From a bacterium (GTDB lineage Bacteria > Patescibacteriota > Minisyncoccia > UBA6257 > Colwellbacteraceae), in assembly GCA_021787205.1 (NCBI GenBank), contig JAJYME010000002.1, positions 1 through 52,694 of the forward strand: a stretch of 52,694 nt of DNA. The letters are read 5' to 3'. The notes under the pieces are model-generated. The model was not told the DNA's origin. It saw nothing but the letters and a program-made list of their open reading frames with translations, and did no database searches. Each line of letters opens with the position of its first letter. The first letter of the stretch is position 1. Both the position numbers and the translations under genes were made by a program. Shown in pieces: positions 14,085-43,473 of the stretch.

Positions 14085-15611
14085 TTAGAAGCCGGCGCGC
14101 TTGATGACTTCCTGCATGGCGTTATAGGAAGTGGCGACAACCAGATACTTCTTTCCAGCTTTATCCTTTATCCAAGCATATTCGAAAGCGGCGCCGATAT
14201 TAGGGAAGGCAACAAAGCGAACGTCCTTTCCTAAGACCTGGCCATCTTTCCACTCCTTGGCTTGGGCACCGGGAGTAATTGAGTAGAGATTGGCAAGAGA
14301 CGATGACTTCTCGATCGAGCCGGACAGTTCAGTGTCGGCCTTGTCGCTTTTAGCGGCAACGATGAAGCCGAGCATCGGATTTTTCTTATCTTGAAAAACG
14401 ACAGCGGTAAAATCATCCTCGAGATCGTTCTTAATCAAGTTATTATCGACATCATGAAGGATGGCGTCGGCAAACTCCGAGAAAGAGATATAGCCACCTT
14501 CAGTCTTAGCCAAGACAACCTCCTTCAAAGAACCGGCCGGATAGGCCTGACCACCTTCATTGGTGAAGAGGGCCGATTTGACGGCAGCAAGGGATAAATC
14601 AGTAGTCTTTTGTTCTACCTTGTCAGCGGGAGTGACCAAAATCGAAGCGTGAGTCTTGATCTGAGGAGTAACAACCACCGGTGTGGGCTGAGTGACAACG
14701 GCCGGAGCCTGAGGAACAGGCTGTTCGACGACCGGCGCGGGCTGTTGAACCGGTTGTTTAGCGGGTTTCAACAAGAAGAATCCGCCAGCGGCAACAACAA
14801 TCAGTCCAACGGCGATAGCGACAATCAAAACGGTCTTTTTCTTAGAGCCGGCAGGGGCAACCTCAGGAACAACAGGAGCTGAGGAGCCGGTGGCGGTGGC
14901 GGCTGTAGCGGCGCCAGAGACAAAGTCATTGACCGAAAAAGTGCTGCCAGCAGCTTCCGCTCCGCCGCTGTTTCTAAGGGATTCGGCATCCGACATCAAA
15001 GTGCGGACATCGACAACGGAAACTGGGGTTGGAGGGGTGGCCACTTCCGGAACCGATTCGGCGGAAGCGAAGAAACTCGGCATGGCCGGTTTCTGAGTCT
15101 GCGGCATCTCAAAAGTCCTCGGAGAAATGACAGTGCTCTCCTCGGAAGGCTGGTTGACCGGGATCGGAGCGAATTGAGGCTCGGCGGTCGAGAGATTGCT
15201 AGCGCCAGTCGGAGTGACCAAGGACGGAGTGGAAAACTCGTTGACGGCCGGCTTTCCTTCAGTGAAAGAAGGGGCAACCGAGCCCGGAACCGAAGCGGAA
15301 ACAACCGGGGAAGGAATGACGGGGGCAGCCGGTTGGCTCTCCGAATAATCGACGGCGACCGGGGCGACCTCCTGAACAATCGGAGTCGGGGCAGCCGGCA
15401 GTTCTTCCGGTTGGACTGGCGAAGACATCAAAGGAGTCGGAGTCGGAGCGGGAATGAAAGGAGTCTCGGCTTTGATCTCGGCGGCATTTACAGGCACGGG
15501 GGCATCGGCCGGAGTGGGGGTGTTAAATGAGGGAATCGCATTCGGGTCCCAACCGATTGGATTTTGATTATTTGTTTGATTTGCATCAAGCGGATTATTT
15601 TGTCCGTTCAT
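14085..15611 (-). CDS. Single-pass membrane protein with a long Pro/Val/Ala-rich N-terminal region and a globular C-terminal domain, function unknown
   Basis: ATG at 15609-15611 (MNGQNNPL) lies 7 nt after an extended -10 (TGATAAAAT). TM segment KKKTVLIVAIAVGLIVVAAGGFFLL. No recognisable motifs. Confidence 0.5.
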   Translation of the reverse strand: MNGQNNPLDANQTNNQNPIGWDPNAIPSFNTPTPADAPVPVNAAEIKAETPFIPAPTPTPLMSSPVQPEELPAAPTPIVQEVAPVAVDYSESQPAAPVIPSPVVSASVPGSVAPSFTEGKPAVNEFSTPSLVTPTGASNLSTAEPQFAPIPVNQPSEESTVISPRTFEMPQTQKPAMPSFFASAESVPEVATPPTPVSVVDVRTLMSDAESLRNSGGAEAAGSTFSVNDFVSGAATAATATGSSAPVVPEVAPAGSKKKTVLIVAIAVGLIVVAAGGFFLLKPAKQPVQQPAPVVEQPVPQAPAVVTQPTPVVVTPQIKTHASILVTPADKVEQKTTDLSLAAVKSALFTNEGGQAYPAGSLKEVVLAKTEGGYISFSEFADAILHDVDNNLIKNDLEDDFTAVVFQDKKNPMLGFIVAAKSDKADTELSGSIEKSSSLANLYSITPGAQAKEWKDGQVLGKDVRFVAFPNIGAAFEYAWIKDKAGKKYLVVATSYNAMQEVIKRAGF

Positions 15612-15678
15612 AAGTATTATTTTATCAGAAAAGAAGCAATGATAAAACCTTCCCTGTGGATAAGAGGCATATATTAAA

Positions 15679-15814
15679 AACAAGCACAGCTTTCCCGGAC
15701 GACGCAGTCTTTGTTTCCAGCGAAACAAATCTGCTCAGACTCGGCAATTTATCGCGTTTCGCGTGAACCGCGCTAAATTGCCTGCGTCATACGCCGGTGA
15801 AGGCTATGCTTGTT
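15679..15814 (-). ncRNA. Candidate structured RNA element, either a pnp 3'-UTR element or an independent sRNA
   Basis: 12-bp closing stem (AACAAGCAUAGC/GCUGUGCUUGUU, with one G-U on the minus strand only) followed by a U-run. Nested helices CCGG..GACGCAG/CUGCGUC..CCGG, GGCAAUUUA/UAAAUUGCC and UUUGUUUC/GAAACAAA. Confidence 0.35.
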
Positions 15815-18706: not shown

Positions 18707-18739
18707 AAACAATTTTTTATATTTTGCGACAGATACCGC

Positions 18740-19048: not shown

Positions 19049-19981
19049 CTCTTCCTCATCGTCGCGACGGGCGGCGTGGAATTGTTTATGGATGTCCCGA
19101 AGCTCAGTGTTCGTCAGATGGGTGTAAATCTGGGTGGTCTGGATATTCGAATGACCGAGCATTTCTTGGACGGAGCGGATATCGGCGCCATTTACCAGAA
19201 GGTCGGTGGCGAACAAATGTCTTAGGGTGTGAGGATGGACCCCTTTCGGAATGCCGGCGGCTTTGGCATAGCGTTCAATCATTCGCTGGACAGCCCGAGG
19301 GATGATCCTGCCAATCGCCTTTGGTTCGGCGGACTTGTCGTAGCTTACAAACATTGCCTCATCGGCATCGTTTCTTTTGTCCAAATATTCCCTGATCGCC
19401 TTTTTGGCGTCACCGGAGAGAAAGACGACCCGGGTGTGTCCGCCCTTACCGGTAATACTTAACTCACCACGATCAAGGTTGGTATAGCGATCCAAGGCGC
19501 AGAGTTCCGAAACACGAAGTCCGGTTGAAAAAAGCACTTCCAGAATGGCCTTGTCCCTCAGGGCCTTCAGATCAGTTCCTTTAGGCGCCTCAAGCAAACG
19601 CTCAAGATCTTCGTATTCGATAACATCAATCTGTCTATCGGGCATGACCGGCAAATCGATCTTTTCCGGAGACAAGACCGGCAAGTCCTGCTTGATGAGG
19701 AATCTCAGGAAGTTCCTGATGGCGATGATATAATACGCCTGGGTATTCTTCTTGAGGTCGGTCTTTTCCGCCAAATAAATCCTGAAAGCCCTGATCCTAG
19801 CATTCGTGATATCCTCGACGGATTTGATTTCCTGGTTCTCAATGAATTTAAGAAGGGCTCTCTCGTAGACTTTCTTAGTCCTGGGCGAACGGTTCTTCTC
19901 GATTTGCAAATAGTCAAAATAATCCTTGAGATGGGATCTTATATCTTTTTTCTCCACCAGATAATTATAACACTGTCGCAA
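19040..19981 (-). CDS. Tyrosine site-specific recombinase, XerC/XerD-like
   Basis: N-terminal SAM-like core-binding domain. Catalytic residues in GLRVSEL, HTLRHLFATDL, LGHSNIQTTQIYTHL. The ORF-track start is TTG at 19981. A GTG at 19955-19957, 6 nt after a TGTTATAAT box, is an alternative start. Confidence 0.85.
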   Translation of the reverse strand: MRQCYNYLVEKKDIRSHLKDYFDYLQIEKNRSPRTKKVYERALLKFIENQEIKSVEDITNARIRAFRIYLAEKTDLKKNTQAYYIIAIRNFLRFLIKQDLPVLSPEKIDLPVMPDRQIDVIEYEDLERLLEAPKGTDLKALRDKAILEVLFSTGLRVSELCALDRYTNLDRGELSITGKGGHTRVVFLSGDAKKAIREYLDKRNDADEAMFVSYDKSAEPKAIGRIIPRAVQRMIERYAKAAGIPKGVHPHTLRHLFATDLLVNGADIRSVQEMLGHSNIQTTQIYTHLTNTELRDIHKQFHAARRDDEEEKK

Positions 19982-19985
19982 AATA

Positions 19986-40212: not shown

Positions 40213-40235
40213 ACCGCCCAGGGGGGCGGTTTTTA
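40211..40235 (+). terminator. Bidirectional terminator (rlmH / RNHCP gene)
   Basis: AAACCGCCC-AGGG-GGGCGGTTT followed by TT. Confidence 0.8.
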
Positions 40236-40700
40236 GTTCTTTATAAAATTGCCAAATAGCTGGCGATAGACCTCATCCTTATCTTTTTCCTCAAGGATCT
40301 CGATCTTTTCCTCCTTCAATGATTCTTTCTCCGCCTCCGATAAAGACAGAGTCTTAGAAAACAGTTTCAAGATCTCGGCCTCATCATCGTCGCCAGCCAA
40401 ACGGTTTATCGATATTTTGCGACACTTGTCACATAGATGGACGATCATCAACTCCCCCTGTTTTTTTCTCCCATACTTATCGACGCCCTCCTGTTTAAAG
40501 GTCAGGGCAACCGGCACCATGATTCCCAAGCAATCAGAGGCGCGGTCTCCGGAGACATCCCGATCGAGGTGTCTCGAGCTCAAACACTTGCGACAATGAT
40601 TCCTATTCTTTGTGCCGATAAGATTGCTAATCTCGTTTCTTTCACCGCAAACCGAACAGATGAATGGACCAAAAGTATCTTCGCTATTTCTAGTAAGCAT
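40233..40700 (-). CDS. RNHCP-domain zinc-ribbon protein
   Basis: FICSVCGERNE...NRNHCRKCLSSRHLD...VHLCDKCRKISINR (Cys pairs plus an RNHC motif). ATG at 40698-40700 lies 7 nt after TGATAGTAT. Confidence 0.7.
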   Translation of the reverse strand: MLTRNSEDTFGPFICSVCGERNEISNLIGTKNRNHCRKCLSSRHLDRDVSGDRASDCLGIMVPVALTFKQEGVDKYGRKKQGELMIVHLCDKCRKISINRLAGDDDEAEILKLFSKTLSLSEAEKESLKEEKIEILEEKDKDEVYRQLFGNFIKN

Positions 40701-40743
40701 TGTCAAAATACTATCAGAGATTTCAGCAAAACTCAAAAATCCA

Positions 40744-40770
40744 CAAGTTATCCACATTGTGGATAACTTG
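40744..40770. promoter_or_regulatory. 27-bp perfect palindrome containing two convergent perfect DnaA boxes
   Basis: CAAGTTATCCACA-T-TGTGGATAACTTG (TTATCCACA at 40748-40756, TGTGGATAA at 40758-40766). An extra ATCCACA lies at 40737-40743. Confidence 0.75.
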
Positions 40771-40870
40771 TGTCATTCTGTCGCAAAATATACCGTCACT
40801 CAATTCTCAACCTTCCCCTGATCGGCAAGCCAGGATAGGTCGTTTCCAACAAACAAGCTAGGAGAACCGG

Positions 40871-40957
40871 TGACAGCGCCTGGCGATGACAAACCACAAT
40901 GACTGACAAGCTTGTGACAAGGCGGTGACAAGATGGTGACAATGGAGTCTTGTCACA
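40871..40957. repeat. Cluster of (G)TGACA(A) boxes, three of them phased at exactly 11 bp
   Basis: TGACA at 40871, 40887, 40904, 40915, 40926 and 40937, and inverted (TGTCA) at 40951. A second cluster lies at about 41296-41425. Confidence 0.8.
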
Positions 40958-41109
40958 AACTTGTGGCCAATTCCTTTGACATTAGGAGTGAAGGATAAGA
41001 CAAATGACAAAAAAGACGAGTTCTTTTTGAACTCTGTTTACACATTTTGTTTTCACATGTCGCAAAATAATGTGTAAACAAAATGTGTAAACAGCAATAG
41101 TAAAAGTAA

Positions 41110-41133
41110 AAAATGTTTGCCGGCAAACATTTT
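41110..41133. repeat. 24-bp perfect palindrome AAAATGTTTGCC|GGCAAACATTTT
   Basis: Read directly from the sequence. Outer arms TGTTT...AAACA match the architecture of the parS consensus TGTTTCACGTGAAACA. Confidence 0.9.
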
Positions 41134-41224
41134 GAAACAAAAAACAGGCAAAGCGTGTGTAAACGGCAAACATCATCCCCTGTTTTTGTGTAAACAGCAA
41201 ACACTTTGTCCAAAAATACGCTAA

Positions 41225-41824
41225 AAGTGTTTGACGTTTACACACCTGCCGTTGTTTTTGTGGAAACAGTGTGTAGACGGCAAACACTGATCCCCCTCGT
41301 TGACAGTGACAAAGCCGTTGACAAGAGAGCTGACAATACCAGTGTCAAAGCAAAAAGACAAGACAAAGACCAAGCTCCGGACAGTGAAAAGGAAAAAGAG
41401 ACGTGTAAAAAGAGGGGGTGACAAAAAACAAGAAGTGTTTGACGTTTACACACCTGCCGTTTTTTTGTGGAAACAATGTGTAGACGGCAAACATTTTGTG
41501 CAGAAAAAAGATATAAGTGTTTGACGTTTACACACCTACCTTTGTTTTTGTGGAAACAGTGTGTAGACGGCAAACAAAAAGATCAAGAACAAACAAGGAG
41601 TGTGTAGACGGCAAACATTTTGTGCAGAAAAAAGATATAAGTGTTTGACGTTTACACACCTGCCTTTGTTTTTGTGGAAACAGTGTGTAGACGGCAAACA
41701 AAAAGATCAAGAACAAACAAGGAGTGTGTAGACGGCAAACATTTTGTGCAGAAAAAAGATATAAGTGTTTGACGTTTACACACCTGCCTTTGTTTTTGTG
41801 GAAACAGTGTGTAGACGGCAAACA
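41225..41824 (+). repeat. Array of iteron-like units. One 62-bp unit, one 82-bp unit, two full 124-bp tandem units and one truncated unit.
   Basis: Units start at 41225, 41433, 41515, 41639 and 41763 (AAGTGTTTGACGTTTACACACCTGCC...). Seven perfect TGTGTAGACGGCAAACA boxes, plus two variants upstream (41156, 41187) and five inverted partners TGTTTGACGTTTACACA. Confidence 0.92.
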
Positions 41825-41830
41825 CCAGTC

Positions 41831-41864
41831 AGCAGAAAATGTTTGCCGACAAACATTTTCTGCT
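41831..41864. repeat. 34-nt palindrome/hairpin AGCAGAAAATGTTTG-CCGA-CAAACATTTTCTGCT
   Basis: 15-bp perfect arms. Shares the core AAAATGTTTGCCG.CAAACATTTT with the palindrome at 41110. Confidence 0.9.
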
Positions 41865-41904
41865 CTTCCGTGATATACTAGAGAGAGACATCCATTAATG
41901 ATAA

Positions 41905-41914
41905 GGGGGGGGGG
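41905..41914. repeat. G10 homopolymer tract
   Basis: ATAAGGGGGGGGGGACAC, 55 nt upstream of the yraN start. Confidence 0.9.
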
Positions 41915-41969
41915 ACACTAATTATTTTGCGACAGTATTAACGGATGCTAACGAAATAAAAAATAACAA

Positions 41970-42350
41970 ATGTCAAGCAAAGACGTGGGTGATTTGGGCG
42001 AGAGCTTAGCCGTCGATTATCTGCAAAAGAAGGGTTGCAAAATCATTGCAAGAAACTGGCGTTGCAGATTCGCCGAGCTGGATATCATAGCCACAGATCC
42101 CGACAATACCCTCTTGATCGTGGAGGTTAAAAGCTCAAAAACGATAATTGACAAAAGTGCCGATTTCTTTCCTGAAATTCACTTTAACGCAACCAAAAGA
42201 AATCGGGTAAGGGCGGCGGGGCTTTACTACGCGAACGCCCAAAAAGATCCGACTAACAAGGATGGGGGTTTCAGGGTCGACCTGATATGCGTCGACATCG
42301 ATCAGGATAAAAAAGGATTCCGGATAAGGCATTATAAAAACGTCACCTAA
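41970..42350 (+). CDS. yraN: YraN-family (UPF0102) putative endonuclease
   Basis: GESLAVDYLQKKGCKIIARNWRCRFAELDIIA...LLIVEVKS matches the YraN/PD-(D/E)xK pattern. Confidence 0.85.
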   Translation: MSSKDVGDLGESLAVDYLQKKGCKIIARNWRCRFAELDIIATDPDNTLLIVEVKSSKTIIDKSADFFPEIHFNATKRNRVRAAGLYYANAQKDPTNKDGGFRVDLICVDIDQDKKGFRIRHYKNVT

Positions 42351-42667: not shown

Positions 42668-42681
42668 TTGGCGGTTTTTTA
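42655..42681 (+). terminator. Bidirectional terminator (rpsT / holA-like)
   Basis: AAACCGCC-TAGTT-GGCGGTTT followed by TTTT. Confidence 0.8.
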
Positions 42682-43473
42682 TTTCAGGGCAAAATCTAAT
42701 AAGACCTCTTCGTAATTCAAGTTGCCTGATTTGACAGCAACATCATAATCGGCAAAACGAGCATACCAATCTTCAGCTCTTTCAGATTTGGGAGCCGTAG
42801 CGCTCAGGAGATTAAAAGCGTGCCCGGCGTCGGCATCCAGATAGGAAAAGATTATTTCGAGATAGAACATCTTTTCGGCTCTGGTTTTAGAGTAGCGGAG
42901 TTTGCTAATGGCAGAGAACAGCTCATAGCCCGAGTAATCATCCTTCTGGATATTCTCATGGGAAAAGGAGAGGCGGTCAATTTCATTAACCATCCCGGTA
43001 AGATCGTTTCCGAAACTCTCGATCATACTCGAAGCATCGGAATCAGTCAGGGACAAACCTCTTCTTCTGGCCTCCTTCTGGATAAAATCCACCAAAGAGC
43101 GACTTTCAGGAACCGAAAATTCCTTAGTAATTGAAGCCTCCGAGAGAAGGGCATTGAACTCAGCCGGAAGTTTGGTGGCCGAGATGAGAATGACGTTCCT
43201 TTCATCCTTTTTGACCAATTCCAGCAGAGTGAGGAAATCTTTAAGATCTGATTTCCCCAGGGTAGCAGAATCAAATCCTTGAAAGGAACAAAGCTTTATA
43301 GGGCTGAAAAAGGAGAAGTTTCTGACAAAATCGACAACCTCTGGAAGGGAGTTCTCGGGAAAAGAGAACTTCTGGACGCCGAGATTTCCATGTTTTTTAA
43401 CAAACTCATCAACCAAGGCGTTGGCATATCGGGATCTCTCAAACTCATTGTCTCCGGAGAGTAAAATCAGCAT
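42679..43473 (-). CDS. holA: DNA polymerase III delta subunit-like protein (short)
   Basis: 264 aa. The MLILLSGDNEFERSRY N-terminus and overall helical pattern resemble short HolA proteins. No sharp motif, so this is tentative. Confidence 0.55.
   Translation of the reverse strand: MLILLSGDNEFERSRYANALVDEFVKKHGNLGVQKFSFPENSLPEVVDFVRNFSFFSPIKLCSFQGFDSATLGKSDLKDFLTLLELVKKDERNVILISATKLPAEFNALLSEASITKEFSVPESRSLVDFIQKEARRRGLSLTDSDASSMIESFGNDLTGMVNEIDRLSFSHENIQKDDYSGYELFSAISKLRYSKTRAEKMFYLEIIFSYLDADAGHAFNLLSATAPKSERAEDWYARFADYDVAVKSGNLNYEEVLLDFALK

What the first reader, a model, noticed from the sequence alone, without database searches (positions are those of the whole stretch)
41225..41824. 124-bp tandem repeats built from a 17-bp box in direct and inverted orientation
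Units begin at 41225, 41433, 41515, 41639 and 41763. The last three are spaced exactly 124 bp apart and are nearly identical.
- Each unit starts with TGTTTGACGTTTACACA, then a 25-nt spacer containing TGTGGAAAC, then TGTGTAGACGGCAAACA, which is 15/17 its reverse complement.
- Full units carry a second direct TGTGTAGACGGCAAACA 41 bp later.
- In total there are seven perfect and two variant direct boxes (41156, 41187, 41270, 41477, 41560, 41601, 41684, 41725, 41808) and five inverted ones.
- Box spacings of 41, 83 and 124 bp are close to 4, 8 and 12 helical turns.
- The left half of the box (TGTGTAGAC/TGTGTAAAC/TGTGGAAAC) is a degenerate DnaA box (TGTGGATAA). The right half (GGCAAACA) is a half-site of the flanking palindromes.

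This is iteron-like, but no Rep gene is nearby.
Basis: partly seen in the sequence, partly recalled or inferred. Interest (0 to 1): 0.8.

Follow-up and report, generated by a model that had tools for sequence, protein, structure and literature searches.

The report
Diverged parS-like centromere array upstream of yraN
The 17-bp boxes are real and belong to a 1.2-kb non-coding hub, conserved in Parcubacteria (tiny uncultured bacteria), that most likely loads the chromosome-partition protein ParB at a diverged form of its usual site, not at a plasmid-style replication origin.

Summary
Fourteen copies of TGTGTAGACGGCAAACA (at most 2 mismatches; 9 direct, 5 inverted) all lie in 41156-41824, against 0.08 expected. 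This includes 2.8 copies of a 99%-identical 124-bp unit.

They sit in a 1212-bp intergenic region between an RNHCP-domain gene and yraN-rpsT, on a Parcubacteria chromosome contig. The region is conserved, in the same order, in four other species: DnaA boxes, then TGTGNAAACA boxes, then an array of 7-14 sites, then yraN.

In three of those species the array consists of 16-bp palindromes (TGTTTGCCGGCAAACA), not 17-mers. Many are hybrids with one exact half of the universal parS site (TGTTTCAC|GGCAAACA). Site spacing falls on whole helical turns in every species. A canonical parS array occupies the same place before yraN in another lineage. ParB proteins of this clade carry Ser-Gln where ParBs next to canonical parS carry Gly-His, at a known specificity position.

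Best reading (about 0.45): a diverged, tandemly expanding parS-type ParB loading array beside DnaA boxes. An origin is not favoured: no Rep, dnaA or dnaN nearby, and no strand-composition switch across the region. The binding protein is inferred, not shown.

The parts
40742..40772 (.). 31-bp perfect palindrome CACAAGTTATCCACAtTGTGGATAACTTGTG holding two perfect DnaA boxes (40748-40756 on +, 40758-40766 on -). On the minus strand it also reads as a hairpin followed by a T-run.
   Evidence: It is 100% identical in the sister species L137. Three direct DnaA boxes hold the equivalent place in L143, L267 and L268.
40779..40790 (-). 12-mer TATTTTGCGACA ('P12'), oriented toward the RNHCP gene; promoter-like.
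   Evidence: six copies in the window. Copies precede rpsO, a tyrosine recombinase gene, RNHCP and yraN, each oriented toward its gene.
40870..40981 (.). GTGACA/TTGACA box cluster I, partly at 11-bp spacing.
   Evidence: (period 11, 3.5 copies). An equivalent cluster is present in L137.
41035..41093 (.). Inverted cluster of four 10-bp boxes (TGTGTAAACA, TGTGAAAACA) around a third P12 copy (41058-41069, minus orientation).
   Evidence: (I2, 96% complementary). It is 97% identical over 62 bp to L137. Clusters of the same box flank the arrays in L143, L267 and L268.
41110..41133 (.). Left 16-bp palindrome TGTTTGCCGGCAAACA (41114-41129) inside the 24-bp palindrome AAAATGTTTGCCGGCAAACATTTT; parS-like.
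   Evidence: It is 100% identical over 24-25 bp to L267 and L143. It shares 10/16 bases with canonical parS TGTTTCACGTGAAACA.
41156..41286 (.). Proximal group of four 17-mers (41156+, 41187+, 41228-, 41270+) with one TGTGGAAACA box (41259-41268).
41300..41423 (.). GTGACA/TTGACA box cluster II, which separates the two 17-mer groups.
   Evidence: L137 has a TGTCACA cluster at the same place.
41436..41824 (.). Distal array of ten 17-mers (4 inverted, 6 direct) interleaved with four TGTGGAAACA boxes. It includes 2.8 copies of the 124-bp tandem unit (41477-41824).
   Evidence: Two units are absent from the same-species MAG.
41840..41855 (.). Right 16-bp palindrome TGTTTGCCGACAAACA.
   Evidence: Conserved in L137.
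41923..41934 (+). P12 copy oriented toward yraN (start codon at 41970); probable yraN-rpsT promoter region.
   Evidence: Conserved in L137.
41970..42350 (+). yraN (UPF0102), the gene that follows the array in every lineage examined.
   Evidence: Pfam. Same position in L137, L143, L267, L268, L270, L011 and L264.

Best explanation
The 17-mers are the species-specific form of a chromosomal array of parS-type sites. The array is a loading and assembly platform for the ParB partition protein of this Parcubacteria clade.

The ancestral site is a 16-bp palindrome, TGTTTGYCGRCAAACA. This is the universal parS site (TGTTTCACGTGAAACA) changed at bases 5-6 of each half.

In this species and its sister, most array positions hold a 17-bp asymmetric derivative instead. 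It keeps one good half (G[GT]CAAACA). The outer arm of the other half is changed from TGTTT to TGTGTA, which makes that half look like the neighbouring TGTGTAAACA boxes.

Seven to fourteen sites sit a whole number of helical turns apart, so bound dimers face one side of the DNA and can act together. The array grows and shrinks by tandem duplication: 124-bp units here, 53-bp units in the sister species.

The array lies next to conserved DnaA boxes and directly upstream of the yraN-rpsT promoter. It may therefore also dampen or time expression of the flanking genes.

Shown: the sites, their conservation, their order, their phasing and their kinship to parS. Inferred: that ParB is the binder, and that the array acts as a centromere.
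For: 1. The module is conserved. The same order (DnaA boxes, TGTGNAAACA cluster, site array, yraN) occurs in five species with RNHCP protein identity down to about 60%. Unconstrained spacer DNA in the same intergenic regions is not alignable.

2. The sites are interchangeable.
- L143 has 7 palindromes where the window has 17-mers; L267 and L268 have 8 each.
- The window and L137 keep two palindromes at or near the ends of the array.
- L267 palindromes are spaced 39-42 bp, like the window's 17-mers at 41-42 bp.

3. The sites are kin to parS.
- The outer pentamers and the central CG are identical to parS.
- 7 of 8 array sites in L268, 3 of 8 in L267 and 1 of 7 in L143 are hybrids with one exact canonical half, TGTTTCAC|GGCAAACA.
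- L137 has the 17-mer TGTGTAGACGTGAAACA.

4. Canonical parS arrays have the same architecture in other lineages.
- Dense canonical parS arrays are common in metagenomes.
- L169 has 15 sites in 1 kb just upstream of dnaA-dnaN.
- L264 has 6 canonical sites plus DnaA boxes directly upstream of, and inside, a yraN homologue.

5. ParB is linked to the boxes in one genome. In L270, a genome found only through the 17-mer, parA-parB lie 6.3 kb from the boxes. No canonical parS (at most 3 mismatches) exists in those 21 kb.

6. The ParB clade has changed at a specificity position.
- All 120 closest ParB homologues have S-Q-[A/G]-R, apart from one with S-H-A-R. Among 55 ParBs encoded next to canonical parS, G-H-A-R is the residue in at least 80% at each of those positions.
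- That Gly is Caulobacter G201, one of four residues that set parS versus NBS specificity. It reads base 6 (PMC7383237). The mapping was checked against Noc, which has R-H-A-R there.
- Base 6 is one of the two bases changed in the variant half-site.

7. The phasing is strong. Adjacent-site distances cluster at 31-33, 39-42, 51-53, 62-64 and 71-72 bp. Rayleigh R is 0.85 at 10.3-10.5 bp, reached by 0 of 5000 random sets.

8. The sites are exclusive to this region. Neither 17-mers nor variant palindromes occur elsewhere in the window or in the flanking DNA of the sister loci.
Against: - No binding data exist, and ParB of this species was not seen. There is no parA or parB in the 52.7-kb contig.
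- The 17-mer is asymmetric and one base longer than parS. Known chromosomal ParB dimers bind 16-bp palindromes.
- S201 is also tolerated by parS-specific ParB variants in the published library. The residue change is therefore suggestive only.
- Two other parB neighbourhoods of the clade (L272, L273) have no arrays within 10 kb.
- The tightest genomic link is to yraN, not to parB.
- Canonical parS arrays are not helically phased (R = 0.10), so the strict phasing here is not a general ParB property.
- The TGTGNAAACA and GTGACA box families are not explained by ParB.
Confidence: 0.45

Rival explanations
1. The region is the chromosomal replication origin, or a second iteron-type origin. DnaA binds the perfect boxes and the many GTTTNCACA-like boxes, including the left half of each 17-mer. 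The arrays then act like iterons or low-affinity DnaA sites that build an initiation complex.
For: - Perfect DnaA boxes are conserved at one end of the module in all five species.
- All 16 TGTGNAAAC matches in the window, and 23 of 24 TGTGNARAC matches, lie in this region. GTTTACACA is 8/9 to the relaxed consensus TTWTNCACA.
- It is the largest non-coding stretch of a compact genome, and its GC is 40% against 47%.
- parS arrays lie next to dnaA in L169.
Against: - There is no dnaA, dnaN or Rep gene within 41 kb to the left or 11 kb to the right, or in any sister locus.
- The strand-specific composition at four-fold sites has the same sign and a similar size on both sides: AT component +0.31 (0.26-0.36) on the left and +0.22 (0.10-0.30) on the right. 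No replication polarity switch is seen.
- No clear AT-rich unwinding element or DnaA-trio is apparent by eye.
- The G at box position 1 is invariant, although this organism uses canonical TTATCCACA.
- In L143, L267 and L268 the array sites are full parS-like palindromes, not DnaA-like boxes.
- L270 has the 17-mers but no DnaA-box cluster.
Confidence: 0.15
2. The boxes are operator or scaffold sites for an unidentified, lineage-specific DNA-binding protein. Candidates are a nucleoid-associated protein or regulator, or DnaA acting as in datA-like titration clusters. The array controls the divergent RNHCP and yraN-rpsT promoters or sequesters the protein. The resemblance to parS is convergent or only ancestral.
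For: - The array is always directly 5' of yraN, in eight lineages.
- RNHCP keeps its own TGTTTACACA boxes when it is separated from the array.
- Promoter-like P12 motifs bracket the region.
- Strict helical phasing is typical of cooperative repressor or looping systems, and canonical parS arrays lack it.
- Three further box families share the region.
Against: - Fourteen to seventeen sites over 700 bp is far more than an operator needs.
- Hybrid sites with exact canonical parS halves are hard to explain without a ParB-family reader.
- YraN itself is reported as an ssDNA endonuclease acting with the ComM helicase on transformation D-loops; sequence specificity was not checked in the text (bioRxiv 10.1101/2024.02.06.579203). 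It is therefore an unlikely site-specific binder.
- No candidate regulator gene is conserved next to the region.
Confidence: 0.25
3. The repeats act as RNA or single-stranded DNA hairpins, that is, a transcribed structured repeat or REP-like element, and not as duplex protein-binding sites.
For: The inverted-then-direct 17-mer pair folds into a 17-bp stem (z = -3.9 for 41636-41704; z = -9.0 for the L137 pair). A promoter-like site lies inside the region.
Against: - The stem follows trivially from the inverted repeat.
- The tandem units in L137 carry only direct boxes.
- L143, L267 and L268 have self-palindromic 16-mers with unrelated spacers.
- There is no Rfam match.
- Conservation lies in the boxes and their spacing, not in paired arms.
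Confidence: 0.03
4. The 124-bp tandem repeat is an assembly artefact and the boxes have no function.
For: The same-species MAG lacks two units, and short-read contigs break in the array. Sister assemblies carry N gaps in their arrays.
Against: The boxes are present in every assembly. The module is conserved across species with different repeat units. Only the copy number is uncertain.
Confidence: 0.02

Closest known systems
Chromosomal ParB-parS centromeres (universal parS TGTTNCACGTGAAACA, clustered near oriC)
   Same: A 16-bp palindrome with identical outer arms and central CG. Hybrid sites carry exact canonical halves. The sites are clustered. DnaA boxes are adjacent. In L270, parAB lie 6.3 kb from the boxes. 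Canonical arrays occur in the same place (before yraN) in L264 and next to dnaA in L169.
   Different: Bases 5-6 of each half are changed (CA to GC). Most sites in this species are asymmetric 17-mers. Spacing is strictly in whole helical turns. There are 14-16 sites within 700 bp, whereas model bacteria have a few sites spread over kilobases. No parB is present on this contig, and binding is untested.
F-plasmid sopC: 12 tandem 43-bp repeats, each with a 16-bp palindrome bound by the ParB-family protein SopB (details recalled from my own knowledge)
   Same: A tandemly repeated unit carries one binding palindrome per about four helical turns. Copy number varies by unit.
   Different: This array is chromosomal. 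It is unrelated in sequence and has no adjacent partition operon. Its units hold three boxes in mixed orientation.
Iteron origins (RK2 oriV 17-bp iterons, P1 oriR, pSC101), which combine DnaA boxes and iterons (details recalled from my own knowledge)
   Same: 17-bp repeated boxes in phased arrays next to DnaA boxes. Inverted copies also occur, as at the regulatory sites of such origins.
   Different: No Rep gene. No similarity to plasmids or phages. The setting is a conserved housekeeping synteny, and no strand-polarity switch is seen.
ParB/Noc specificity divergence (Jalal et al. 2020, PMC7383237)
   Same: A ParB-family site changed at base 6 goes together with a change at residue 201, the residue that reads base 6.
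   Different: Here residue 201 is Ser, not Arg, and residue 202 is also changed (His to Gln). Base 5 is changed as well. There is no evidence of a paralogue.
DnaA-box clusters outside oriC (E. coli datA and DARS, B. subtilis DnaA-box clusters; recalled from my own knowledge)
   Same: A cluster of perfect and degenerate DnaA-like boxes in an intergenic region away from dnaA.
   Different: Most of the repeated sites here are parS-like rather than DnaA-like. Titration activity is untested.

Membership tests
parS/ParB chromosomal centromere | 16-bp palindromic site matching the parS consensus | tested here: inconclusive
   The palindromes at 41114 and 41840 match parS at only 10/16 bases, with none within 3 mismatches in the array region; one isolated 13/16 match lies at 15712, outside it. 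Sister species have hybrids with one exact parS half. The 17-mers are not palindromes.
parS/ParB chromosomal centromere | A ParB protein encoded by the genome binds the site | not testable with these tools
   No parB lies on the 52.7-kb contig. ParB is present in the related genome L270, 6.3 kb from the 17-mers. Binding needs an experiment.
parS/ParB chromosomal centromere | Sites restricted to one (origin-proximal) region of the chromosome | tested here: inconclusive
   All sites in the available DNA fall in this one region. The distance to the origin is unknown because only a contig is available.
parS/ParB chromosomal centromere | ParB specificity residues compatible with the site | tested here: inconclusive
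   The clade's ParBs have R173 and S201-Q202 instead of G201-H202. Residue 201 reads base 6. However, S201 is also allowed in parS binders.
Iteron-type replication origin | An initiator (Rep) gene in cis with the iterons | tested here: not met
   Pfam scans of the flanking genes in the window find none. The neighbours listed for the sister loci also lack one.
Iteron-type replication origin | Directly repeated 17-22 bp boxes in helical phase plus DnaA boxes | tested here: met
Iteron-type replication origin | Relatives on plasmids, phages or other mobile replicons | tested here: not met
   No blastn match in PLSDB plasmids or INPHARED phages. Only single chance hits or none in IMG/VR.
Bacterial oriC | A cluster of DnaA boxes | tested here: met
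   Two perfect boxes here and three in L143, L267 and L268, plus many 8/9 matches to the relaxed consensus.
Bacterial oriC | A switch of replication-strand composition at the site | tested here: not met
   The four-fold-site AT component is +0.31 on the left and +0.22 on the right, the same sign. Power is limited: only 13 genes lie on the right side.
Bacterial oriC | An AT-rich unwinding element, and adjacency to dnaA or dnaN | tested here: not met
   No dnaA or dnaN on the contig. No distinct AT-rich DUE was seen by eye. This part was inspected, not computed.

The most novel reading that the evidence does not exclude
The 17-mer is a true composite site: one half is read by ParB and the other by DnaA, or by a second box-10-binding protein. 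The phased array then assembles initiator and partition proteins on one face of the DNA. That would make it a chromosomal origin-centromere coupling device, or a DnaA- and iteron-driven origin without a cis initiator, specific to Parcubacteria. It would also evolve by tandem unit gain and loss.
Probability: 0.12. Interest if true: 0.85.

Novelty: new variant of a known kind. Interest (0 to 1): 0.6.

Why it matters
Parcubacteria and other candidate-phyla bacteria are mostly uncultured. Almost nothing is known about how they replicate and segregate their small chromosomes.

This region offers a concrete, testable cis element:
- a conserved 1-2.4 kb non-coding hub in otherwise compact genomes;
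- a parS variant that can be followed through hybrid intermediates;
- a matching clade-wide change at a known ParB specificity residue.

If ParB binding is confirmed, this would be a natural example of ParB-parS co-evolution within a chromosome lineage. It would also show an asymmetric, phased site array, which current ParB models based on 16-bp palindromes do not predict. In practice, the array explains recurrent contig breaks and scaffold gaps next to yraN and RNHCP in these MAGs. It could also serve as a landmark for the partition locus.

Tried and rejected
- Scanned species-representative genomes for the 17-mer. Only two Patescibacteria contigs (L011, L069) were informative.
- The first metagenome scan, for two 17-mers 20-50 nt apart, found nothing.
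- The second metagenome scan, for two generic TGTTTNNCGNNAAACA sites, was swamped by canonical parS. It served as a comparison set, but found only one further variant locus (L259).
- Plasmid and phage blastn and three viral scans found nothing.
- Rfam found nothing in the region or in sister regions.
- Raw GC skew in 2-kb windows was uninformative because codon bias dominates. It was replaced by a four-fold-site model that separates coding strand from replication strand.
- The idea that 16-nt inverted repeats (40775-40790 and 41923-41938) mark a mobile or invertible element was dropped. The shared 12-mer also precedes rpsO and a recombinase gene and always points toward its gene, so it looks like a promoter element. 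All assemblies have the same orientation.
- YraN as the site-specific binder was set aside after the D-loop nuclease report.
- The 264-aa neighbour (42679-43473) gave no Pfam hit. By eye it looks like the DNA polymerase III delta subunit; this was not tested.
- Helical phasing as a general parS-array property was tested and rejected (R = 0.10).
- Literature searches for the site sequences, for RNHCP, and for parS in candidate phyla returned nothing relevant.
Full report
**1. Observation**

The window is a complete 52,694-bp contig of a Parcubacteria (Paceibacteria) bacterium. Its RNase J is closest to homologues from Colwellbacteria, Wolfebacteria and Liptonbacteria.

The finding lies in a 1212-bp intergenic region (40758-41969). 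On the left is an RNHCP-domain gene (40233-40757, minus strand). On the right are yraN/UPF0102 (41970-42350, plus strand) and rpsT (Pfam; gene list).

It occurs nowhere else in the contig, against 0.08 expected.
- Tandem Repeats Finder reports a 124-bp unit, 2.8 copies, 99% identical, over 41477-41824.
- Two 16-bp palindromes flank the boxes: TGTTTGCCGGCAAACA at 41114 and TGTTTGCCGACAAACA at 41840.

**2. Copy number**

A MAG (metagenome-assembled genome) of the same species, GCA_027424005.1 (L001), is identical over the whole region except for four differences:
- the absence of exactly two 124-bp units;
- an extra 11-bp TGTGTAAACGA box;
- a poly-G tract of 5 rather than 10;
- a 3-bp indel.

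Two short-read contigs end inside the array. Sister-species assemblies carry 100-N gaps in their arrays. The boxes are real in every assembly. The unit number is either polymorphic or collapsed in short-read assemblies, and that cannot be decided here.

**3. The rest of the region**

The 17-mers are one of several box families in a fixed order:
- a 31-bp perfect palindrome containing two perfect DnaA boxes (40742-40772);
- the 12-mer TATTTTGCGACA ('P12') at both ends and once inside;
- two clusters of GTGACA boxes (40870-40981 and 41300-41423);
- an inverted cluster of 10-bp boxes, TGTGTAAACA (41035-41093);
- the left palindrome, four 17-mers, ten more 17-mers interleaved with TGTGGAAACA boxes, and the right palindrome.

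All 16 TGTGNAAAC matches in the contig lie in this region.

**4. Conservation**

I fetched relatives through RNase J and RNHCP homologues. Four further species carry a syntenic region.

| Locus | Relatedness | Intergenic length | Array sites |
|---|---|---|---|
| L137 (same species as L142) | RNase J 82% identical | 1147 bp | at least eight 17-mers TGTGTAGACGTCAAACA, in 53-bp tandem units |
| L143 / L144 | RNHCP 61% | 848 bp (yraN side) | seven 16-bp palindromes TGTTTGYCGRCAAACA, no 17-mers |
| L267 | RNHCP about 60% | 2449 bp | eight palindromes |
| L268 | RNHCP about 60% | 2322 bp | eight palindromes |

- L137 also has the identical 31-bp DnaA palindrome, both P12 copies, both GTGACA-type clusters, the TGTGTAAACA cluster (97% identical over 62 bp) and two palindromes.
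- In L143, five genes separate RNHCP from the array. Even so, RNHCP keeps three GTTTACACA/GTTTCCACA boxes upstream.
- L267 and L268 have no gene and no Rfam hit in their intergenic regions. The order next to yraN is again three DnaA boxes, a TGTGNAAACA cluster, the eight palindromes, and more TGTGNAAACA boxes.
- Between L267 and L268, the 680 bp next to yraN align at 71% identity, while the 1.4-1.6 kb spacer does not align at all. Conservation therefore reflects constraint on the boxes.
- The 24-bp palindrome AAAATGTTTGCCGGCAAACATTTT is 100% identical between the window and L267.

Two more distant Patescibacteria contigs, found only by their 17-mers, show the same position.
- In L011 the boxes are followed by an IS200-like transposase gene and then yraN.
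- In L069/L270 two perfect 17-mers and GTAAACGGCAA repeats fill the 763-bp region between a tRNA gene and yraN.

**5. What the sites resemble**

The palindrome is the universal parS site, TGTTTCACGTGAAACA, changed at bases 5-6 of each half (CA to GC or GT).

The link is more than a resemblance. Seven of eight array sites in L268, three of eight in L267 and one of seven in L143 are hybrids, TGTTTCAC|GGCAAACA, with one exact canonical half. One 17-mer in L137 ends in GTGAAACA. Canonical and variant halves thus occupy equivalent positions in one array. This suggests a single ParB-family reader.

The 17-mer keeps the central six bases and one arm of the palindrome. This is clearest in L137, where the box reads TGTGTA-GACGTC-AAACA. 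The other arm has changed from TGTTT to TGTGTA. That half then looks like the neighbouring 10-bp box and, less closely, like a DnaA box: GTTTACACA is 8/9 to the relaxed consensus TTWTNCACA (the consensus is recalled from my own knowledge).

**6. Comparison set**

A metagenome scan for pairs of TGTTTNNCGNNAAACA sites returned 120 loci, almost all with canonical parS (338 of 353 sites).
- Dense arrays are common. L169 has 15 sites in 1 kb immediately upstream of dnaA-dnaN.
- L264 has six canonical sites plus DnaA boxes directly upstream of, and inside, a yraN homologue. Its layout matches the window's, but with the canonical site.
- Sixty-two of the 120 loci encode a ParB, detected by tblastn. 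The probe was a Spo0J sequence written from memory and was used only as a probe.

**7. ParB of the clade**

- L270 encodes parA-parB 6.3 kb from its 17-mers. It has no canonical parS (at most 3 mismatches) in 21 kb.
- All 120 closest homologues of that ParB (annotated as Paceibacterota, Wolfebacteria or Patescibacteria group) have S-Q-A/G-R, apart from one with S-H-A-R. Among 55 ParBs encoded next to canonical parS, G-H-A-R is the residue in at least 80% at each of those positions.
- The Gly corresponds to Caulobacter G201. That is one of four residues that switch ParB between parS and the Noc site, and it reads base 6 (PMC7383237). The alignment to Noc, which has R-H-A-R there, confirms the mapping.
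- Base 6 is one of the two bases that differ in the variant half-site.
- This is suggestive only, because Ser at 201 is also tolerated by parS-specific variants in that study.
- Two other parB neighbourhoods (L272, L273) have neither arrays nor canonical parS within 10 kb.

**8. Phasing**

Centre-to-centre distances between adjacent 17-mers and palindromes in five species fall at 31-33, 39-42, 51-53, 62-64 and 71-72 bp.
- Rayleigh R is 0.85 for periods of 10.3-10.5 bp. None of 5000 random sets reached this.
- Canonical parS arrays in the comparison set show no such phasing (R = 0.10).

The sites therefore face one side of the helix. This points to cooperative assembly and is a real difference from ordinary parS clusters.

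**9. Is it an origin?**

In favour:
- conserved DnaA boxes;
- the largest non-coding stretch on the contig;
- lower GC than the surroundings.

Against:
- No dnaA, dnaN or Rep gene on the contig or in any sister locus.
- No plasmid, phage or viral relatives.
- No polarity switch in strand composition. Coding-strand bias and replication-strand bias were separated at four-fold degenerate sites. The plus strand then carries an A-over-T excess of +0.31 (gene-bootstrap 0.26-0.36) left of the region and +0.22 (0.10-0.30) right of it.

The skew test has limited power, with only 13 genes on the right. Even so, it argues that the whole contig lies in one replichore.

**10. Other rivals**

- An unidentified regulator or scaffold protein remains a serious alternative. 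The array is tied more tightly to yraN than to parB, the phasing is operator-like, and three box families remain unexplained.
- YraN itself is reported to be an ssDNA endonuclease that resolves transformation D-loops with the helicase ComM (bioRxiv 10.1101/2024.02.06.579203). It is therefore an unlikely sequence-specific binder.
- Hairpin or RNA function is not supported. The stems follow from the inverted boxes, the arrangement is not conserved, and Rfam is silent.

**11. Verdict**

The iteron/Rep interpretation is not supported.

The best-supported reading, at moderate confidence, is a diverged and tandemly expanding parS-type ParB loading array. It forms part of a conserved hub of DnaA boxes, parS-like sites and promoters upstream of yraN in Parcubacteria.

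The identity of the binder, the role of the TGTGNAAACA and GTGACA boxes, the distance to the true origin and the real copy number all remain open. No paper in the searchable library mentions these sequences.

Noticed in passing
window 18720-18731 (+), 19974-19985 (-), 40413-40424 (+), 40779-40790 (-), 41058-41069 (-), 41923-41934 (+): The 12-mer TATTTTGCGACA occurs six times in 52.7 kb, where chance predicts about 0.006. Four copies lie just upstream of a gene and point toward it: rpsO, a Xer-like tyrosine recombinase gene, RNHCP and yraN. One copy is antisense inside RNHCP. It looks like a promoter or operator element. It contains TTTTGCGA, which equals a CRP-S competence half-site, but that may be coincidence.
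   Followed up: partly
window 15712-15727, with a perfect DnaA box at 15655-15663: An isolated parS-like site, TGTTTCCAGCGAAACA (13/16 to canonical parS), lies about 50 bp from a perfect DnaA box. Both sit at the 5' end of the 547-aa gene 14085-15728. This may be a second ParB or DnaA contact point.
   Followed up: no
window 41905-41914: A run of 10 G between the right palindrome and the yraN promoter-like motif is only 5 G (GGGGGAG) in the same-species MAG and in a Logan contig. This is either a homopolymer sequencing error or a phase-variable tract upstream of yraN.
   Followed up: partly
window 40742-40772, minus strand: The DnaA-box palindrome also scores as an intrinsic terminator or attenuator on the minus strand: a 14-bp stem followed by GATTTTTGAG. 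It lies between the P12 motif and the likely RNHCP start codon (about 40700). It could end a leftward transcript from the internal P12 at 41058, or attenuate RNHCP expression.
   Followed up: no
L267 3327-5775 and L268 4414-6735: Sister species have 2.3-2.4 kb with no detectable gene or Rfam family between yraN and RNHCP. This includes a 1.4-1.6 kb spacer that is not conserved between them, which is unusually long non-coding DNA for these compact genomes.
   Followed up: partly
L264 7880-8060 and 8780-8910: The canonical-parS and yraN locus carries its own lineage-specific repeated boxes (GGACATGTCCTTTAGAA and TGTCCGTTAGAA) on both sides of yraN. They are analogous to the GTGACA clusters in the window. 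In addition, parS sites lie inside the yraN coding sequence, where they encode V-S-R-E-T.
   Followed up: no
L259 1040-1502: A 1.5-kb metagenome contig alternates pairs of GTGTGAAACA boxes (13-bp spacing, each box containing the canonical parS half) with the hybrid palindrome TGTTTGCCGCGAAACA. This is a third flavour of the same kind of array.
   Followed up: partly
P0121-P0125: The closest RNHCP homologues sit on very short contigs (0.8-3.4 kb). This fits assemblies that routinely break at the adjacent repeat array.
   Followed up: no
window 42679-43473 (-): A 264-aa protein with no Pfam hit is conserved next to rpsT and fpg in all sister loci. By eye its N-terminus resembles the DNA polymerase III delta subunit (HolA). 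This was not tested.
   Followed up: no
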